DNA of 64,000 bases from Heptranchias perlo (Eukaryota). Each line of letters begins with the position of its first letter. Position 1 is the first letter of the stretch. Below the pieces are notes generated by a model. That model ran no database searches and was not told where the DNA came from. It saw only the letters and a list, made by a program, of their open reading frames with translations. Below are positions 4,064 to 60,393 of this stretch, one piece after another. The DNA lies in assembly GCF_035084215.1 (NCBI RefSeq), contig NC_090356.1, positions 16,988,001 through 17,052,000 on the forward strand, written 5' to 3'. Position numbers and translations under genes: made by a program.

Positions 4064-4162
4064 TTTCTTTTAACATGATGTGGAGATGCCGGTGATGGAC
4101 TGGGGTTGACAATTGTAAACAATTTAACAACACCAAGTTATAGTCCAACAATTTTATTTGAA

Positions 4163-4203
4163 ATTCACAAGCTTTCGGAGGCTTCCTCCTTCCTCAGGTG
4201 AAT
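4163..4203 (-). ncRNA. Minimal type I hammerhead ribozyme motif (PLE-associated)
   Basis: AUUCAC-CUGAGGA-A-GGAGG(AAG)CCUCC-GAAA-GCUU-GUGAAU: core boxes CUGANGA and GAAA, 6-bp stem I, 5-bp stem II, palindromic AGCU in place of stem III. Confidence 0.8.
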
Positions 4204-5661
4204 GTTGTGGAAATGAAATCCTCGAACCCTTTGCATTTATAAATCACAGAACAATACCTGGTGATTACAGATAGTCTTTCCAACTGCCCGTTGCCAAGGC
4301 AATCACTGTGTGCAGACAGAGAGGTGTTACCTACAAGTCCACCGAATATACAATCCACCAAAAAAAAACAGAGAGAGAGAGAGGCAGAAACATGGAAAAG
4401 ACAGCAAATGACCCGTTATATTAAAAACAGATAACATTTGTTCGCTGGTGGGGTTACGTGTAGCGTGACATGAACCCAAGATCCCGGTTGAGGCCGTCCT
4501 CATGGGTGCGGAACTTGGCTATCAATTTCTGCTCGACGATTTTGCGTTGTCGTGTGTCTCGAAGGCCGCCTTGGAGTATGCTTACCCGAAGGTCGGTGGC
4601 TGAATGTCCTTGACTGCTGAAGTGTTCCCCGACTGGGAGGGAACCCTCCTGTCTGGTGATTGTTGCGCGGTGTCCGTTCATCCGTTGTCGCAGTGTCTGC
4701 ATGGTCTCGCCAATGTACCATGCTCTGGGGCATCCTTTCCTGCAACGTATGAGGTAGACAACGTTGGCCGAGTCACAGGAGTATGAACCATGCACCTGGT
4801 GGGTGGTGTCCTCTCGTGTGATGGTGGTATCTGTGTCGATGATCTGGCATGTCTTGCAAAGGTTACCGTGGCAGGGTTGTGTGGTGTCGTGGACGCTGTT
4901 CTCCTGAAAGCTGTGTAATTTGCTGCGAACGATGGTCTGTTTGAGGTTGGGTGGCTGTTTAAAGGCGAGTAGTGGAGGTGTAAGAATGGGATATGACGCT
5001 CGACTCATCGATCGACAGTTCCGACGGGCCACAGAGAAAAATCGCATAGACCACCGCATCGAAGACTAACACGGGACGCAACCAACAGAGTACCCTTCGT
5101 CGTCCAGTACTTCCCCGGAGCGGAGAAACTACGCCATGTTCTCCGCAGCCTTTAACATGTCATCAATGACGACGAACACCTCGCTATGGCCATCCCCACA
5201 CCTCCACTACTCGCCTTTAAACAGCCACCCAACCAGTCGGGGAACACTTCAGCAGTCAAGGACATTCAGCCACCGACCTTCGGGTAAGCATACTCCAAGG
5301 CGGCCTTCGAGACACACGACAACGCAAAATCGTCGAGCAGAAATTGATAGCCAAGTTCCGCACCCATGAGGACGGCCTCAACCGGGATCTTGGGTTCACG
5401 TCACGCTACACGCAACCCCACCAGCGAACAAATGTTATCTGTTTTTAATATAATGGGTCATTTGTTGTCTTTTCTATGTTTCTGCCTCTCTCTCTGTTTT
5501 TTTTTGGTGGTTTGTATATTCGGTGGACTTGTAGGTAACACCTCTCTGTCTGCACACTGTGATTGCCTTGGCAACGGGCAGTTGGAAAGACTATCTGTAA
5601 TCACCAGGTATTGTTCTGTGATTTATAAATGCGAAGGGTTCGAGGATTTCATTTCCACAAC

Positions 5662-5702
5662 ATTCACCTGAGGAAGGAGGAAGCCTCTGAAAGCTTGTGA
5701 AT
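5662..5702 (+). ncRNA. Minimal type I hammerhead ribozyme motif (PLE-associated)
   Basis: Same motif; the stem II closing pair is G-U (CCUCU). Confidence 0.75.
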
Positions 5703-6419
5703 TTCAAATAAAATTGTTGGACTATAACTTGGTGTTGTAAAATTGTTTACAATTTTCTTTTAACAGTCACTGCACTTCAAAGTAATTGATTATATGTGAA
5801 ATGTTTTGAGGTGCTTTTGAGAAATATGGAGGTTTTACAGCTCCAAGTCCTTATTCCTTTCAAATCGATGCAAGTTCAGCAGTTATACTATGGCTTCAGT
5901 TAACCATTTTATCTTCAACTGTAACATCAAGAATTACCCCACAGTAATTTTTTAGAATGATTAATACAATTGTTGCAAACATTTTCAGATTTTTCATCTT
6001 CATTTACCAGCAGTAAATTACCACGCAGGAAACAATGATACTGTACTTAGTGTAATAAGTGTTATGTGAATGGCAATTACAGCACCTCAGGGAATAATAT
6101 TGCTAATTTCTACATGAGTCACAGTGCATAATAGTCTGAGAATGCACCTAGAGGAGAAAACAGGTCCTGGCCACAGAGGGAGCGGTAAAAGGAACCCAAA
6201 GTAGAAAAAAAAAGAAGGGAAAAGCAAAGTTTCACCACATGACATGTCTTCACAAATTACTTACCACAGATATCAACAGCAATACATGGATGCAGATTGG
6301 TAATTGCCTAAAGAAAAGGAAGCAGAGGGTATTTGTAAGGGGAGGGGGGGGGGGGGTCGAAATGGAAGGAGATATTGAGTGAGATTCCCCAGGGACTTTT
6401 GCTATGATTTTCTCTCTCT

Positions 6420-22654: not shown

Positions 22655-22962
22655 AACTTGCATTTCTATAGGACCTTTCATGACCTCAGGATATCCCAAA
22701 GCACTTTACAGCCAATGAATTGATTTCCAATTACAGTCACTGTTGTAATGTAGGCAAACAGTAGCCAATTTGCACACAGAAAGGTCCAACAAACAGCAAT
22801 GAGATAAATGACCAAATAATTTCTCTTAATAATGTGCAATTAATGATTAATATTGGCCAAGACACCAGGAGAACGTCCCTGCTCTTCAAATAGTGGCATG
22901 GGATCTTTTACATCCGCCTGAAAGTGCAGCCAGGGCCTTGGTTTAACGTCTCATCCAAAAGA
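22655..22962 (-). mobile_element. DeuSINE (SacSINE1-like), 5' truncated
   Basis: Reverse complement of the Deu core and tail (gccaatttgcacac, ggcatgggatcttttacatcc, ggtttaacgtctcatccaaaag). Confidence 0.7.
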
Positions 22963-23254
22963 ACTAATAAGGATGAAGAATCTGCAATGCAAGAAAAAAA
23001 ATGGCACAGGAATGGGTCCAGTGGCAATGGAAAGTATGAGAGGGCAGCAAGTAAGTGTGTACAAATGTGGCAATCAAGTACCTGTGAGGGAAGCAATGAA
23101 AAGCACATGCGAGACATCAGCAAATCTAAGGAATACGAGTGTGGCAATCAAGAGCATGTGAGAAGGCTGAGATTGAAAGCATTTGAGAGTACATGGGCAG
23201 CAAAGTTGATGGAGTTTACCGTGTATCTAACTGCTGTACCTGACCTGAAGATAG

Positions 23255-23682
23255 ATTTGCATTTATATAGGGTTTTTCATGACCGTAGGACGTCCCAAAG
23301 CTTTTTACAGCCGATGAAGTACGTTTGAAGTGTGGTCAGTGTTATAATATAGGAAACGTGACAGCCAATTTGCACACAGCAAGGTCCCACAAACAGTAAT
23401 GCGATATTGACCAGATATTCTATTTTTTTAGTGATGTTGGTTGAGGGACACCTTTGCTCTTCTTCGAAATAGTACTATGAGATCTTTTACATCCACCTAA
23501 GAGGGCTGAGGCAGCCTCGGTTTAATGTTTCATCTGAAAGACAACACCTCCAACAGGGCTGCACTCCCTCAGTACTGCATTGGAGTGTCAGCCTAGATTT
23601 TGTGCTCAAATCTCTGGAGTGAGACTTGAACTCACAACCTTCTGATGCAGAGGCAAGACTGCTACCACTGAACCATGGCTAA
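23255..23682 (-). mobile_element. DeuSINE (SacSINE1-like), near full length
   Basis: Tail, Deu core and tRNA-like head (gacttgaactcacaaccttctga..gctaccactga) on the minus strand. Confidence 0.75.
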
Positions 23683-26994: not shown

Positions 26995-28079
26995 CTAGAG
27001 GCATAAGAGAATAAAACTAATGTAATTAAATCTATTTAATTTGGAACCTCCTAATTTCTTCTTCTTTCCCTTATATTCTGTTCTTTCAATCCCAAACTCT
27101 CAAATGTATCATGAATCTTCAACCCAGAAAAATATTGCCACAGAACGCAAGTGCTAACTTTTGGTTGCAAGATATGCAAAAACAAACTGAACTCTGCTTT
27201 TAACATAAAACTCCTGCTCAAGAGCATTTGAAGATTTCAATGTTGCTGACTGCCCTCAACCCTTAAGGACATCTTAATTTCCTCATACTTGGAATCACCT
27301 TTAACCACTTTTGTACTGTCACCTGCATAGATTACATTCCAAGAGTGCAGCATTCATGAGTTACCTCCTGGCATTTACATTACTAAATCTGACTCCTTTA
27401 TCCTGGTGGCAGAATCATAGCCTGCAGAAAAACAGGTCTACGATTCTGCCACTGAGGTAAGGACAACACATTTAGTAACGTAGACATTAGGAGCCAGCTC
27501 ACCAATGCCAACCTTATAAGGGTCAGTAGAAAACTGGATAAAGCTGCTCACCCTCCCCAATGATACCCTTCGTATAATTATGTGACCAGAACTTCCCCCT
27601 GGAACTCGATGCAGGACTAACCAACATCATATACAGCAACATAATTTCTTATGACGTGTGCTCTATCCTTCTATTAAAGCGACCCTGTCGTTTATTTGCC
27701 TTTATTTACTGAAGCCAAGCATTGTGATGATGATTCCATAGATTCATCTACGATGATCTCCAGATCTCTTTCCTGATCAACATGGTCTATTAAATAGCTA
27801 CTCTCTCTTCTGATTTTTACTTCCATTCTAAAAATTCTTTTGTACCCATTCACAGTAAATGAAACATGCTCCTACTTGCCCAGTCAACTAAAGGATCTAA
27901 ATAATAATGAATCTGGCTTCATTGTTTCCGCTGTCTATTTTGATATCTACAGACACAAGATTTTGCTTACAATACAATTGGCCAGATCATTTTCATACAT
28001 TAGAAAATAAAATAGCAAGTGCCCAAGATTGACAATACATTCAATATGTTGTTAATCCTGAATGTTTATGAACACTTAC

Positions 28080-39849: not shown

Positions 39850-40480
39850 CAACAGCAACAACTACTTTCATTTATATAGCGCCATTAACAAACTTAAATG
39901 TCCCAAGGCACTTCACAGGAGCAATTATCAAACAAAACTTGACACCGAGCCACATAAGGAGATATTAGGATACGTGACCAAAAGCTTGGTCAAAGAGGTA
40001 GGTTTTAAAGGAGCATCTTAAAGGAGGCGAGGGAGGTAGAGAGGCAGCGAGCTTTCGGCAGAGAATTTCAGAGCTTAGGACCTAGGCAGCTGAAGGCATG
40101 GCCGCCAATGGTGGAACAATTAAAATCAGGGATGCGCAAGAGGCCAGAATTGGAGGAGCGCAGAGATCTCGGAAGGTTGTAGGAGGCTACAGAGATAGGG
40201 AGGGGCAAGGCAGCGAAGGGATTTGAAAACAAGGATGAGAATTTTAAAATTGAGGCGTTCCCAGACCAGGAGGCAACATAGGTCAGAGAGCACAAGGGTG
40301 ATGGGTGAACTGGACTTGGTGCAAGTTAGGATACGGGCACCAGAGTTTTGGATGAGCTCAAGTTTATGGAGGGTGGAAGATGGGAGGCCGGCCAGGAGAG
40401 CACTGGAATAGTCAAGTCTAAAGGTAACAACGGCATGGATGAGGGTTACAGCAGCAGATGAGCTGAGGCACAGAACTGTA
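39850..40480 (-). mobile_element. L2-clade LINE 3' fragment
   Basis: Reverse strand gives PRSLRSSNSGLL..STIGGHAFSCLGPKL and a tail ggcgctatataaatgaaag..gttg. Confidence 0.75.
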
Positions 40481-41385
40481 TATCACCACAATCCGTGACC
40501 TCATGACTCACCGCATCCCTTACTCCTCCATCATCACCAAGCCGAGACACAAACCTGGTTGAATGAAGAGCGAAGAAGGGCAAGCCAGGAGTGGCGTCAG
40601 GCAGAACAAAAAACATTTTTAAAAAACTAGGCCAACAGCTTTATTTTGAACCTCATATTTAAATGTGAGAAAGGGGCAGATGTTAGGTTTTTGAAAAGGC
40701 ATTTTGTGCAATTTGATCAGTTCAGGATCTATTTTTGTTTGATAGAATTTCAGCACTTCTCAGTTACAGTTCTGATCTATTGCAGCCAAAAGGATTGTTT
40801 TTTTTAAGCTATATGATTGGTTCGGTTTATTTTTCCTTAGTGGTTGATTTTGCTCAGTGCTCATGGTTACAGAGCTCTGATTTTTCACTACTTTGTATAA
40901 AATTGGAGCAAAGCAAGTGAAAGTGTGTCACAGAAATCCACATATAGACAGTGTGTTGGCATCAGCATGACAGAAACTGCACTAGATGTACCATTTTCAT
41001 GAAGTATCAAAAGGGAATTGACTTGGGTGCAAACTTAAAGAAACCACAAAAGGAGTTAAATTAGCTAAGGATGAAGTTGAAAAAGACCCAAAAAGCTCAT
41101 TAGATTCGGCACTCAGTATGTCTAGCCAATGCAGAGCAGCAATTTAAATATCTGAGGTTCAAAATAAAGCTGTTGGCCTAGATTTTTTTTTTAATGTTTT
41201 TTGTTCTGCCTGACACCACTCCTGGCTTGCCCTTCTTCGCTCTTCATTCAACCAGGTTTGTGTCTCGGCTTGGTGATGATGGAGGAGTAAGGGATGCGGT
41301 GAGTCATGAGGTTACAGATTGTGGTGGTATACGGTTCTGTGCCTCAGCTCATCTGCTGCTGTAACCCTCATCCATGCTGTTGACT
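40424..41385. repeat. Long inverted repeat: ~240-bp arms (40424-40664 and 41142-41385) with ~480-bp spacer
   Basis: The arms read as near-exact reverse complements with only scattered mismatches. Confidence 0.9.
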
Positions 41386-47600: not shown

Positions 47601-48785
47601 AACAGCATTAACAGAGCTGCGGCTTAAGCTAAGGCAGGACAGGAAGCTAAACATTCCTGGTTAGAAAATATTTAGGAGGGTTACAGTAGGAAAGAGAGAA
47701 GGGACAGCAATATTAATTAAGGATTCCATTACAGTATTAGAGCATAAGGATAATGAAAAACCTGAATCTATTTGGTTACTTAAGGAATATGAAGGGAATT
47801 CTTACACTATTGAGAGTTTATTATATTCTGCCGAATGCAATAGAGCAGGAGATACTTAGACAAATTAGAGAAAAAAGCAGAAATAACAGGGCCATAATAA
47901 TAAGTGACTTTAATTATTTAAAGACAGAGTGAGGTAAAAGTAATGAAAAGGGCAAAATAAGAGAGGGGTTTCTACATTGTATCCAGGACTGCTTTCGAGA
48001 TCAGTTATTTTTTAGTCCAACAATGAAGGTGACTGTGCTGGATCCAGTTCTAGGAAATTACATGGAGCCAGTCAGTAACGTAAGGGTAGCAGTCATCTGG
48101 AAACAGCTACCAGAATTTAATAAAAGTGGACAAAAAAAAACTGAAAAGGAAAGAGTCAAAGATAATGGTACTTGACTGGAAAAATTCTAATTTCAATTAG
48201 ATAAAAACCACAGATAAATTGGAAAGTTAACAGATAAGACTTTGTACAAAGAATACGAAATTTTCAAATGGGAGACAATTAAGACATATTCCCACAAGAA
48301 GTAAAGGTGGTGCAACAAAAACTGGTAGTTCCTTGGATGAGGAAAGAAATTCAAATTAAAAATGCATATGACAACAAATCTGGGGCTAACATGAAAGAAA
48401 ATCCAGAATATAGAGGGGAGGCAAAAAAGATTAGAAAGGCAAAGAGAAGATATGAAGAAATTCTGGCAGGGAACATAAAAGGAAATGGCAATTGATTTTG
48501 CAAAAACAGATAAGTAAAATAAGAGTCAAAGAAAGCATCTTATTGAGCACGAAGGATTGGTGGAGATACAAAATAAGTAGTTTATTGGTTTGCACATAGC
48601 AGTGTGACAGTGGGAATTAAAGGGTCCAAGTGGAGAAGCTGGAACAATCATACAGGATAACTACCGATAAGGAAGCAGCACTGAAAAAAAATTGGGGTAA
48701 CTCAAAAACAAGGAAACGGCACCAGTCCTGATAGCATGCATCTTAGAATGCTGAGGGAAGTTAGAGACTCTGACCACAATATCTC

Positions 48786-49527
48786 CAGGTGCATGGTTCA
48801 TACTCCTGTGACTCGGCCAACGTTGTCTACCTCATACGTTGCAGGAAAGGATGCCCCAGAGCATGGTACATTGGCGAGACCATGCAGACACTGCGACAAC
48901 GGATGAACGGACACCGCGCAACAATCGCTAGACAGGAGGGTTCCCTCCCAGTCGGGGAACACTTCAGCAGTCAGGGACATTCAGCCACCGACCTTCGGGT
49001 AAGCGTACTCCAAGGCGGCCTTCGAGACACACGACAACGCAAAATCGTCGAGCAGAAATTGATAGCCAAGTTCCGCACCCACGAGGACGGCCTCAACCGG
49101 GATCTTGGGTTCATGTCACGCTACACGTAAGCCCACCAGCGAACAAAAGCTATCTGTTTTTAATATAACGGGTCATTTGCTGGCTTTCTCTGCCTTCCGG
49201 ATGTTTCTGCACCTCTCTCTCTGTTTTTTTTTCCTGTTTGTTTGTTTTTTTTGTTGAATGTATATTCGGGGGTTCTGTAGGTAACACCTCTCTGTCTGAA
49301 CACGGTGATTGCCTTGGCAACGGGCAGTTGCAAAGACTGTCTGTAATCACCATGTATTGTTCTGTGATTTATAAATGCGTAGGCTTCGAGGAGTTCCTGA
49401 CATTTACCTGAGGAAGGAGGAAGCCTCCGAAAGCTTGTAAATTTCAAATAAAATTGCTGGACTATAACTTGGTGTTGTAAAATTGTTTACAATTGTCAAC
49501 CCCAGTCCATCACTGGCATCTCCACAT
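48786..49527 (+). mobile_element. 5'-truncated Penelope-like element with 11-bp TSD, nested in an old CR1
   Basis: GIY-YIG ORF 48789-49130 nearly identical to the copy at 4454-4800; CACAATATCTC at 48775-48785 and 49528-49538; the CR1 sequence resumes on both sides. Confidence 0.92.
49402..49442 (+). ncRNA. Minimal type I hammerhead ribozyme motif (PLE-associated)
   Basis: AUUUAC-CUGAGGA-A-GGAGG(AAG)CCUCC-GAAA-GCUU-GUAAAU; stem I covaries relative to the other copies. Confidence 0.8.
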
Positions 49528-50619
49528 CACAATATCTCAAACATCGTTCGATATGGAAGTTGTGCCACAGGACTGGAGGGTTGCACATGTAACACTTAAG
49601 TCAAAAACGAAGAAAGAGATAAATTAGATAACTATAGATCAGTCAGCTTAACATTGGTAGTGAGTAAGCTTAAAATTAATATTCATCAAGAAAAACAGTT
49701 AAGGACAGCAGTATGGATTTGTAAACGGCAAGTCATGTCTGACAAATTTAATAAGGTTATATGAAGAAATAATAGTGTACTGATAAAGGAAATGCAGAGT
49801 ATGGTTTATGCATGTTTTTCAGGCAGGAGGGATGTAAACAGTGGTGTGCCTCCAAGGTCAATGTTGGGGCCACTGCTCTTCTCTCAAAAAATTATCTGGA
49901 CTCAGTGCAGGGGCCACAATACCAATATTTACAGTCAACTCAAACAGGGAGCATAGTTAACTGTAGAGAGGACTGTAAGCAATTTCAGAAGGAAATAGAT
50001 AGGTTAGTAGATTGAGGAGATAGATGGTGGTTGAAATTTAATGCAGAGAACGTGAGGTAATACAATTTGGAGGGAAGATAATGGACCCATGCACTAAATG
50101 GTAAAGAGACTAAGGGGTTCAGATACACAAATCTTTAAAAGTAGGTGGACAACTTGATAAGCGTATAAGAAGGGCATATGGGATCCTAGGTTTTATAAAG
50201 AGGCATAGAGTACAAAAGTTTTCAGCCACTGTCACCCGACATGTGCGTTTATCTAAAATTTTAACTCAATCTAAGTGGACAAACTAAAAGTGATTTTGTG
50301 CAATTGCTTGCTGAGAGGGAGTTAGCTGTTTTCCTTTATCACCACTGCAGCATGAGGTGCCTTTATGAGGAAGAGTGAAATGCACATCCTTACATTTGAG
50401 AAAACTGCATGACTGTGAACCAGCAATCTCAGATAGAAGCATCACACTATTATTTACAAGATAATGCTGGAGACAGTTTTGTCTGGGTAAACAGACCAGG
50501 TTGTTTAATTTGGTAATCAATCAGATGAGTTAGGGGTGTTAAAACTGTCACCGAGCTCTAGCAACCTGCATTACTTGCAATTATTTACTTACTCTGTACA
50601 CCAACCTTTAAACATTTAT

Positions 50620-52099: not shown

Positions 52100-52560
52100 A
52101 ATCTGGCCAGCTGTACCTCCCATCTACAGTTCTCATCCTTGTGTTCTCCATGGCCTCGCCCCTCCCTATCTCTGTAACCTCCTCCAGATCCTACAACATC
52201 TCTGCGTTCCTTCAATTCTGGCCTCTTGTGCATCCCCTTCGCCAATGTGGGTCGGCGAGCACAGGGTCGATGGGGGAATGGGACGCTGCGAGCTAGAATT
52301 TCCTTCACCCCCACCATTGGCGGCCGTGCCTTCAGCTCTCTCGGCCCTTAGCTCTGGAATTCCCTTCCTAAACCTCTCCACCTCTCTCTCTTTTAAGACT
52401 CTCCTTAAAACCTACCTCTTTGACCAAGCATTTGGTCACCTGTCCTAATATCTCCTTATGTGGCTCGGTGTCAAATTTTGCCCGATAATGCTCTGGTGAA
52501 GCGCCTTGGGACATTTTACTACATTAAAGGCGCTGTATAAATGCAAGTTTTTGTTGTTGA
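52100..52560 (+). mobile_element. L2-clade LINE 3' end
   Basis: LHGLAPPYLCNLLQ...FKTLLKTYLFDQAFG and tail aaggcgctgtataaatgcaag..gttg; same family as 39850-40480. Confidence 0.75.
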
Positions 52561-56484: not shown

Positions 56485-56671
56485 CTATCAAATACAAACA
56501 AGCATTTTTAATAAACAAAAAGCATAATACAATTTCCAAAACTAATTTTTACTTTCGTCTCAGGGCGTAAATGTTGTTAAAATGGAGATTCATATGCCCT
56601 CCAGTCAAAGAAAAAATGGAAGATATTAGTTAATATATAAACATGTTGAGTGGGTTGTAACATTCGACATC

Positions 56672-56744
56672 GTTCATCTGAGGAAGGAGGAAGCCTCCGA
56701 AAGCTTGCTGGACTATAACTTGGTGTTGTAAAATTGTTTACAAT
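56672..56744 (+). mobile_element. Short solo remnant of the same Penelope 3' end/pLTR
   Basis: ctgaggaaggaggaagcctccgaaagcttg...ctggactataacttggtgttgtaaaattgtttacaat, with a 19-nt deletion relative to the 49.4-kb copy. Confidence 0.8.
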
Positions 56745-60020: not shown

Positions 60021-60305
60021 ACCCCCAGCTATTGCTGTGTATCCTGCCTGCTCTGTGCCACTCTCACCCCCAGCTATTGCTGTGTATCCTGCCTGCTCTG
60101 TGCCACTCTCACCCCCAGCTATTGCTGTGTATCCTGCCTGCTCTGTGCCACTCTCACCCCCAGCTATTGCTGTGTATCCTGCCTGCTCTGTGCCACTCTC
60201 ACCCCCAGCTATTGCTGTGTATCCTGCCTGCTCTGTGCCACTCTCACCCCCAGCTATTGCTGTGTATCCTGCCTGGTCTGTGCCACTCTATAACCCCCAG
60301 CTATT
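60021..60305. repeat. 45-bp minisatellite, ~6.3 near-perfect copies
   Basis: Unit acccccagctattgctgtgtatcctgcctgctctgtgccactctc starting at 60021, 60066, 60111, 60156, 60201 and 60246. Confidence 0.95.
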
Positions 60306-60393
60306 ACTAGATATCCTGTCTAGGTCGCGTCGCTTTATAACCCCAGCTACTGTTGGGATATCCTGTTCGGTCGGGGTGTTGTTCCTTTTTTAC

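What the first reader, a model, noticed from the sequence alone, without database searches (positions are those of the whole stretch)
49402..49442. Hammerhead ribozyme in a young Penelope family, with a compensatory stem I change between copies
Seen: all four PLE 3' ends (4163-4203 minus, 5662-5702, 49402-49442, 56678-56706) carry CUGAGGA-A-GGAGG(AAG)CCUCC/U-GAAA-GCUU. Stem I is AUUCAC/GUGAAU in the 4-6 kb copies but AUUUAC/GUAAAU here, a paired C-G to U-A swap, while the flanking UTR has diverged. Established: PLE pseudo-LTRs carry minimal type I hammerheads whose palindromic tetranucleotide replaces helix III and which cleave as dimers. Inference: the structure is under selection in this lineage. 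The predicted cleavage triplet is an atypical CUU, and there is an extra A between A9 and G10.1. A TATAAA lies ~35 nt upstream and an AATAAA ~5 nt downstream.
Basis: partly seen in the sequence, partly recalled or inferred. Interest (0 to 1): 0.7.

Follow-up and report, generated by a model that had tools for sequence, protein, structure and literature searches.

The report
Penelope retroelement minimal hammerhead ribozyme
The motif is one of about 80,000 copies of a tiny, predicted self-cutting RNA carried at the end of a young Penelope-type jumping gene; this kind is already described, its paired bases do change together between subfamilies, and the genomic copies were likely made from RNA that it had not cut.

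Summary
The motif is real: a minimal type I hammerhead in the pseudo-LTR of a young, very abundant Neptune-type Penelope-like element (80,517 intact-core copies; tandem units with intact 902-aa ORFs). The stem I swap is a fixed subfamily difference. Genome-wide the pair is C-G 11,974, U·G 2,578, U-A 2,090, mismatched C·A 63, and four pairs show two-sided changes across 20 haplotypes, so selection on the fold is supported. The window alone does not show this: the two 4–6 kb copies are arms of one insertion and the 56.7 kb copy lacks stem I. The 'atypical' features are ordinary: Cervera and De la Peña 2014 list the extra nucleotide as conserved, and U17 is in 24 of their 56 examples, two with the same GCUU. 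Only 164 of 44,100 copies differ or break at the CUU site; 5' ends instead cluster about 30 nt after the TATA box, so copies likely come from uncut transcripts. Cleavage itself is untested. The scan noted the same on other DNA, including this genome. New member of a known kind; interest 0.27.

The parts
48786..49527 (+). 5'-truncated Penelope-like insertion (endonuclease remnant, 3' UTR / pseudo-LTR, hammerhead, tail)
   Evidence: bounded by an 11-bp target duplication
48775..48785 (.). left target-site duplication (11 bp)
49528..49538 (.). right target-site duplication (11 bp)
48786..49130 (+). C-terminal part of the GIY-YIG endonuclease coding region
   Evidence: 340 of 345 bases match the 4 kb arm, whose translation shows the GIY-YIG-type and cysteine motifs
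49370..49377 (+). TATA box TATAAATG; TATA-like sequence kept in old and young subfamilies
   Evidence: promoter role inferred
49398..49402 (+). inferred transcription start zone (TATA +28 to +32)
   Evidence: 5' ends of short copies cluster here; no RNA data
49402..49407 (+). stem I 5' arm AUUUAC; 49405 is the swapped base
49408..49415 (+). C3-U4-G5-A6-G7-G8-A9 plus the extra A
49416..49428 (+). stem II (5 bp, 3-nt loop), G10.1-C11.1 closing pair
49429..49436 (+). G12-A13-A14-A15.1, palindrome AGCU (49432-49435), U17; predicted cut between 49436 and 49437
   Evidence: cleavage predicted only
49437..49442 (+). stem I 3' arm GUAAAU; 49439 is the swapped base
49447..49452 (+). AATAAA in the A/U-rich linker; role unclear
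49459..49527 (+). conserved tail stem-loop with two preferred 3' ends (about 49492-49494 and 49527-49532), likely the two reverse-transcription start sites
   Evidence: 62,115 exact copies of the 32-nt anchor; bimodal 3' ends; compare PMC11167929
4076..5753 (.). one head-to-head inverted insertion holding both the 4163-4203(-) and 5662-5702(+) hammerheads
   Evidence: 12-bp target duplication at 4064-4075 and 5754-5765; arms 97% alike
4163..4203 (-). hammerhead, C-G form of stem I
5662..5702 (+). hammerhead, C-G form, with C11.1>T
56663..56744 (+). short stub: core kept, stem I 3' arm and linker deleted; predicted unable to fold as a hammerhead

Best explanation
This is a minimal type I hammerhead motif in the pseudo-LTR of a young, high-copy Neptune-type Penelope-like retrotransposon, kept with its pairing and core intact across subfamilies, and it is likely a slow, dimer- or protein-assisted self-cleaver whose uncut RNA is what gets copied into the genome. 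Shown: the motif, its copy number, subfamily-level paired changes, an unchanged core, intact tandem units, two preferred 3' ends, and where copies begin. Inferred: transcription starts about 30 nt after the TATA box, 6-15 nt before C3, so the ribozyme is the first structure of the RNA. The element's reverse transcriptase starts inside the RNA at the tail stem-loop about 55 or 90 nt past the cut site. Starting in the 5' pseudo-LTR it runs through the uncut ribozyme to the RNA's front end and leaves 100-140-bp stubs; starting in the 3' pseudo-LTR it gives longer, 5'-truncated copies such as 48786-49527. Two such cDNAs joined head to head give the inverted insertions. Cutting at CUU would sever the element body from its priming site, so cleavage most likely acts on another pool of RNA or at a later step (trimming tandem read-through transcripts to unit length 92 nt before the AUG, or limiting template), not in making the insertion template.
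For: Copies: 18,378 exact cores; 80,517 with core fixed and N7 plus nine stem-loop positions free. Swapped pair genome-wide: C-G 11,974, U.G 2,578, U-A 2,090, C.A 63. A tree from upstream sequence only (81 rows) puts the window's 49 kb copy in a 45-row clade (100/99) in which all rows carry the U. 20 hand-picked natural haplotypes: 93.2% of cells paired, 4 pairs with two-sided change; the inner four pairs of both stems are never broken; slid controls 24-47%. G5 differs in 456 and U17 in 194 copies against 80,517, scattered over all backgrounds, while free N7 is G 63, C 36, T 1 in the first 100 rows listed (my count). Shared changes on a 78-row tree: 0 at 15 core-type sites, 2 at N7, 0.85 per site in the UTR. 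MFE of the monomer is stems I plus II, pair probabilities 0.58-1.0. Intact 902-aa ORFs in 3,081-bp tandems, RVT_1 E=2.5e-10, CX4CxxC linker. Cut site: 164 of 44,100 copies have a non-T at 17; 25 of 30 inspected are truncations, so about 0.3-0.45% begin there, against about 0.2-0.3% at +3. 43 of 92 tail-anchored copies end 0-25 nt before C3. Median end is 9 nt before C3 in short-spacer and 15 nt in long-spacer subfamilies (n=61, 55; P=8e-5) but 30 and 31 nt from the TATA T. Youngest subfamily: 6,805 copies reach -8, 5,317 reach -12, 4,613 reach -19, about 6% lost per base at TATA +28 to +31. PMC11167929 reports internal priming at two sites, a protein-assisted hammerhead, and unprocessed RNA as the main substrate in vitro.
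Against: No cleavage was measured and no raw RNA reads were available. Copy counts are not events: the C-G to U-A swap is one event, and related sequences can beat the shuffle control (pair-level measures were not significant, 38 and 39 of 500). The zero in the core is inflated because many rows were fetched by core patterns (private changes 0.36 per site against 1.49 in the UTR). The tail is about as conserved (0.24 shared changes per site), so constraint here is not unique to the ribozyme. The outer two pairs of stem I are often broken (8 of 20 and 3 of 20). Folding z-scores are weak (-0.07 to -1.4), and the double-hammerhead dimer (-18.3 kcal/mol) is not favoured over two monomers (-19.2) or a stem II-swapped dimer (-27.1). 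The 5'-end peak is broad: about 2% per base is still lost 7 nt upstream of it, the TATA-relative medians differ slightly (P=0.02), and 51 of 116 ends fall outside +28 to +32. The 92 copies are the first matches on contig C1 and include paired arms and local duplicates. Cut RNA may simply decay or fail to integrate, so the test does not measure how much RNA is cut.
Confidence: 0.8

Rival explanations
1. The ribozyme cuts efficiently and the unit-length RNA is religated (circle or partner swap in a dimer); religated RNA is the template for long and tandem copies, so no cut footprint is left.
For: Proposed in PMC4209133. Perfect tandems exist. The U.G subfamily is a chimera whose switch lies between -3 and +2 around the core, an interval that contains the cut site.
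Against: Stubs ending at TATA +30 need a linear, uncut RNA. The switch interval spans 33 identical bases, and the foreign segment seems bounded upstream as well (three sites at -288 to -258 follow the other parent), which fits conversion or a double template switch equally. PMC11167929 found no RNA-seq reads starting or ending at the cut in anole.
Confidence: 0.1
2. The fold is selected as a binding or pausing structure for the element's protein at the RNA's 5' end and is catalytically idle; short copies end near it because reverse transcriptase stalls or switches there, not because the RNA starts there.
For: Low in vitro activity of min-HHRs; catalytic mutants insert normally in vitro; a second cluster of ends at the stem I 5' edge, 5-8 nt before C3; breadth of the peak.
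Against: Catalytic positions are fixed while N7 varies. The modal end moves with the TATA box, not with the stem.
Confidence: 0.08
3. Neutral history: one chance double change in a master copy, multiplied by amplification, with no selection on RNA structure.
For: The window shows only one event; the motif is no more conserved than the ORF end or tail there; counts reflect descent.
Against: Across subfamilies the inner pairs of both stems take several pair types and are never broken in 20 haplotypes; spacer next to the motif has 2.0 shared changes per site and the core none; mismatch class is 63 of 16,705.
Confidence: 0.02

Closest known systems
Minimal hammerheads (min-HHR) in pLTRs of metazoan Penelope-like elements, Cervera and De la Peña 2014 (PMC4209133; read main text parts 1-2 of 4 and supplement file 2 parts 1-2 of 3)
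   Same: Type I, CUGANGA plus one extra base, G10.1-C11.1, palindrome instead of helix III, short stem I, U17 common, thousands of solo copies, opposite-strand pairs, covariation within a genome. The painted-turtle row has the same GAAA-GCUU.
   Different: This family is not among their rows. Copy number (80,517) is about ten times their highest (about 9,000 in Xenopus). They did not map 5' ends of copies or order the changes on a subfamily tree in the parts I read.
Poseidon element of Anolis carolinensis (PAc), Frangieh et al. 2024 (PMC11167929; read parts 1-2 of 4)
   Same: pLTR hammerhead, internal RT start at two sites 30-40 nt apart giving the tail, unprocessed RNA as template.
   Different: PAc is Penelope/Poseidon clade, its ORF starts inside the ribozyme and RT starts within the ORF; here the AUG is 92 nt past the cut and both start sites are upstream of it. 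Their evidence is in vitro and RNA-seq; mine is genomic copy ends.
Neptune clade of EN+ PLEs (Craig et al. 2021, PMC8557442, passages; Arkhipova et al. 2013, PMC3846280, passages)
   Same: RT plus C-terminal GIY-YIG, CX2-5CxxC linker, partial tandems, inverted 5'-truncated partner, 30-40-bp tail on one end; TATA plus initiator-like sequence noted in a rotifer pLTR.
   Different: Clade assigned by motif only; Nematis also has the linker and no RT tree was built.
Non-LTR retrozymes of animals (bioRxiv 10.64898/2026.07.22.740005; abstract and Results part 1 of 2)
   Same: Short hammerhead-bearing repeats related to PLE pLTRs.
   Different: The stubs here are dispersed single or inverted ends of a coding element, not tandem monomers of a non-autonomous family.

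Membership tests
PLE minimal type I hammerhead | Core C3 U4 G5 A6 N7 G8 A9 ... G12 A13 A14 A15.1 ... U16.1 H17 | tested here: met
   G5 differs in 456 and U17 in 194 copies against 80,517
PLE minimal type I hammerhead | Stem II closed by G10.1-C11.1, with one extra base after A9 | tested here: met
   20 of 20 haplotypes; feature listed in PMC4209133
PLE minimal type I hammerhead | Open-ended stem I of 3-6 bp supported by paired changes | tested here: met
   inner 4 bp always paired, outer 2 bp loose
PLE minimal type I hammerhead | Palindromic 15.1-16.1 segment instead of helix III | tested here: met
   AGCU invariant in 20 of 20
PLE minimal type I hammerhead | Location in the pLTR of an RT-endonuclease element | tested here: met
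   240-280 bp after the endonuclease coding end and 92 nt before the ATG in tandems
PLE minimal type I hammerhead | Self-cleavage at NUH, as dimer or with protein | not testable with these tools
   no assay; folding energies do not favour the double hammerhead; no end pile-up at CUU in genomic copies
Canonical type I hammerhead (Rfam Hammerhead_1 type) | Helix III with loop and loop I-loop II tertiary contact; Rfam match | tested here: not met
   no Rfam hammerhead hit at E<=10; no helix III
Neptune-clade PLE | RT followed by C-terminal GIY-YIG endonuclease with two Cys inside the motif | tested here: met
   RVT_1 hit; motifs read from translations; Pfam gave no GIY-YIG hit
Neptune-clade PLE | CX2-5CxxC linker between RT and EN | tested here: met
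   CX4CxxC; definition (shared with Nematis)
Neptune-clade PLE | RT phylogeny groups with Neptune references | not tested
   no reference sequences at hand
Non-LTR retrozyme | Non-coding tandem monomers forming their own family | tested here: not met
   copies are ends of a coding element; tandems seen are 3,081-bp coding units

The most novel reading that the evidence does not exclude
The youngest and most active lineage descends from a chimeric master whose two halves of stem I come from different subfamilies, joined inside the ribozyme core; the ribozyme's own cut-and-rejoin reaction at CUU (in a mixed dimer or a circularised tandem transcript) made that join, which would be a genomic fossil of ribozyme ligation in a Penelope element.
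Probability: 0.06. Interest if true: 0.65.

Novelty: new member of a known kind. Interest (0 to 1): 0.27.

Why it matters
The ribozyme type, its extra A, U17 and within-genome covariation are in print since 2014, so the finding as written adds one more family. The residual value is for the open question of what PLE hammerheads do. Tens of thousands of young copies act as a record of RNA ends: they start near TATA +30 and almost never at the cut site, matching in a vertebrate genome what was shown in vitro for the anole element. Intact, identical tandem units and an ordered series of natural stem variants give a ready test set for cleavage assays. I found no paper mapping genomic 5' ends against the cut site, but the key dimer paper (Lünse et al. 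2017) was not held, and other reports of this scan reached the same reading.

Tried and rejected
Rfam scan: no hammerhead family hit. A cluster of 3 of 92 copies starting 2 nt past the cut looked like a cleavage footprint; genome-wide it is 212 copies, 13 of 30 inspected truncated, so rejected. U.G as the ancestral intermediate between C-G and U-A: rejected, it is nested inside the U-A clade and chimeric. An apparent shared G5 change came from rows fetched for that variant; 19 such rows were dropped and it vanished. Cap-derived extra G at stub 5' junctions: not seen (G 7, C 7, T 6, A 5 in non-inverted copies). Sequencing runs: no RNA holder listed on record and only contigs were served, which cannot show ends, strand or level; they show relatives of the motif in runs labelled as other organisms, with N7 and stem I variants, and were not used as evidence of expression. 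Dimer folding gave no support for the double hammerhead. Pfam scan of 10 other window ORFs gave only weak, unrelated hits. No target duplication found for the 56.7 kb stub. Lünse et al. 2017 was not held; I know it only through the review PMC6765202 (passages). Supplement file 1 of PMC4209133 could not be searched, and its figures came as text only. NUH rule taken from PMC3884650 (passages); relative rates for CUU were not found.

Full report
Observation. At 49402-49442 the RNA reads stem I AUUUAC, CUGAGGA, an extra A, a 5-bp stem II with an AAG loop, GAAA, GCUU and GUAAAU; the predicted cut lies between 49436 and 49437. Stems I and II are the predicted minimum-energy fold, although folding z-scores are weak (-0.07 to -1.4). 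The window carries less than it seems. The copies at 4163-4203 and 5662-5702 are the two arms of one head-to-head insertion with a 12-bp target duplication, and the 56.7 kb copy has lost its 3' stem I arm. Between the two usable insertions the motif (39 of 41) is no better kept than the ORF end or tail.

The element. The 49 kb copy is a 742-bp 5'-truncated insertion with an 11-bp target duplication. In the 3.25-Gb genome the exact core occurs 18,378 times, the tail anchor 62,115 times, and the core with N7 and nine stem-loop bases free 80,517 times. [quoted passage not shown] By the definitions in PMC8557442 (passages) this is a Neptune-type element; no RT tree was built. The window's copies have end branches of 0.8-1.4%, so they are young but not the youngest.

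Is the swap real? Whole-genome counts for the third pair of stem I are C-G 11,974, U.G 2,578, U-A 2,090 and C.A 63. Of the first 30 U-A copies, 9 have the window's exact 3' arm and 21 a further U.G at the next pair. A tree of 81 long copies built only from sequence upstream of the motif places the 49 kb copy in a 45-row clade (100/99) fixed for U; sampled C.A copies are scattered singletons. So the swap is one fixed change in a master lineage. The U.G class is not its intermediate: it nests inside the U-A clade, its diagnostic sites from -239 to -3 follow that clade, and those after the core and in the ORF start follow another. It is a chimera, and its descendants include the youngest copies.

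Selection on the fold. In 20 natural haplotypes that I picked, one per variant (not all seen in three or more loci), 93.2% of cells pair. Four pairs change on both sides, the inner four pairs of both stems are never broken, and the outer stem I pairs often are. Cell-level shuffles were exceeded (0 of 500), pair-level ones were not (38 and 39 of 500), and relatedness inflates both. G5 differs in 456 and U17 in 194 copies against 80,517, spread over all backgrounds, while N7 is G 63, C 36, T 1 in the first 100 rows. On a 78-row tree (19 rows fetched for rare variants dropped) there are no shared changes at 15 core-type sites, 2 at N7, 0.85 per site in the UTR and 2.0 in the TATA spacer. That zero is partly built in, since many rows were found by core patterns, and the tail is also conserved (0.24). 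Together this supports selection on a hammerhead fold in amplifying lineages; it does not show catalysis.

The 'atypical' features. PMC4209133 (main text parts 1-2 of 4) names the base between 9 and 10.1 as conserved, reports covariation within genomes, opposite-strand pairs and low dimer activity. In its Fig. S3 text I count U17 in 24 of 56 rows and a CUU triplet in 3, with GAAA-GCUU in the turtle and Philodina rows. NUH allows U (PMC3884650, passages).

Where copies begin. If cut RNA were copied, insertions would start at the G after CUU. Of 44,100 copies carrying the 34 bases after the cut, 164 have a non-T before it; 25 of 30 inspected are truncations, about 0.3-0.45% after allowing for chance matches. 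Two bases further on the figure is 212, 13 of 30 truncated. There is no pile-up. Among 92 tail-anchored copies from the start of contig C1, 43 end 0-25 nt before C3, 6 at 26-60, 28 run further, 7 end in the core, 4 near the cut and 4 after it. The position tracks the TATA box: medians are 9 and 15 nt before C3 in short- and long-spacer subfamilies (P=8e-5), but 30 and 31 nt from the TATA T (P=0.02); 65 of 116 fall at +28 to +32. In the youngest subfamily, counts fall from 6,805 to 5,317 over TATA +28 to +31 and to 4,613 over the 7 bases before: about 6% and 2% per base. The peak is real but broad. 3' ends fall at two sites about 36 nt apart.

Mechanism. Shown: anatomy, counts, pair changes, copy ends. 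Inferred: the TATA box starts transcription just before the ribozyme; RT primes internally at the tail stem-loop and copies uncut RNA, giving stubs from the 5' pLTR and longer copies from the 3' pLTR. This matches PMC11167929 (parts 1-2 of 4), where the anole element primes at two internal sites, its hammerhead cuts only with protein present, and unprocessed RNA is the main substrate. A pLTR promoter is known for Drosophila Penelope, there TATA-less (PMC2377424, passages), and a TATA with an initiator-like sequence was noted in a rotifer pLTR (PMC3846280, passages). Cutting would separate the body from its priming site, so I place its likely role in trimming tandem transcripts or limiting template. 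Cut RNA might also decay or be religated, which this test cannot see. Nearest-neighbour energies do not favour the double hammerhead.

Verdict. A new member of a kind described in 2014. My reading was fixed before I consulted earlier notes, several of which say the same for other DNA and for another piece of this genome; they are not independent support. Interest 0.27.

Noticed in passing
L002, L189, L143, L150 and relatives (U.G class, 2,578 exact-core copies): Chimeric master: about 240 nt of UTR, TATA and the stem I 5' arm from the U-A clade, the 3' arm, tail and ORF start from another clade; switch between -3 and +2 around the core. Its descendants are the youngest copies.
   Followed up: partly
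window 49459-49527; L254-L290: The tail hairpin also changes in pairs between old and young subfamilies (an A-U pair against G-C next to its loop), and 3' ends fall at two sites about 36 nt apart.
   Followed up: partly
L005/L006, L008/L009, L014/L015, L151, L155: Many insertions are 150-300-bp head-to-head pairs of stubs; in L155 the arms join at the ribozyme's own AAGCTT palindrome.
   Followed up: no
L171, L152, L159, L169 (G000:C1, 2.4-4.5 Mb): Tandem 3,081-bp units; intact 902-aa ORFs in L171 (two identical) and L152, so the family may still be active.
   Followed up: partly
window 5690; The commonest private damage is CpG decay at C11.1-G12 (C>T in 10 and G>A in 4 of 229 parsed copies), which would weaken or kill the core after insertion.
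   Followed up: partly
window 49128-49130 and 4454-4456(-): The window copies stop the ORF about 11 codons earlier than the intact young units, which read on past that point.
   Followed up: no
window 39853-40114 / 52311-52559, 40428-41382, 22658-23541, 60021-60365, 27382-27476: Other repeats in the window: inverted and dispersed repeats, a short tandem repeat near 60 kb, and a 95-bp palindromic element with a below-threshold Rfam microRNA hit.
   Followed up: no
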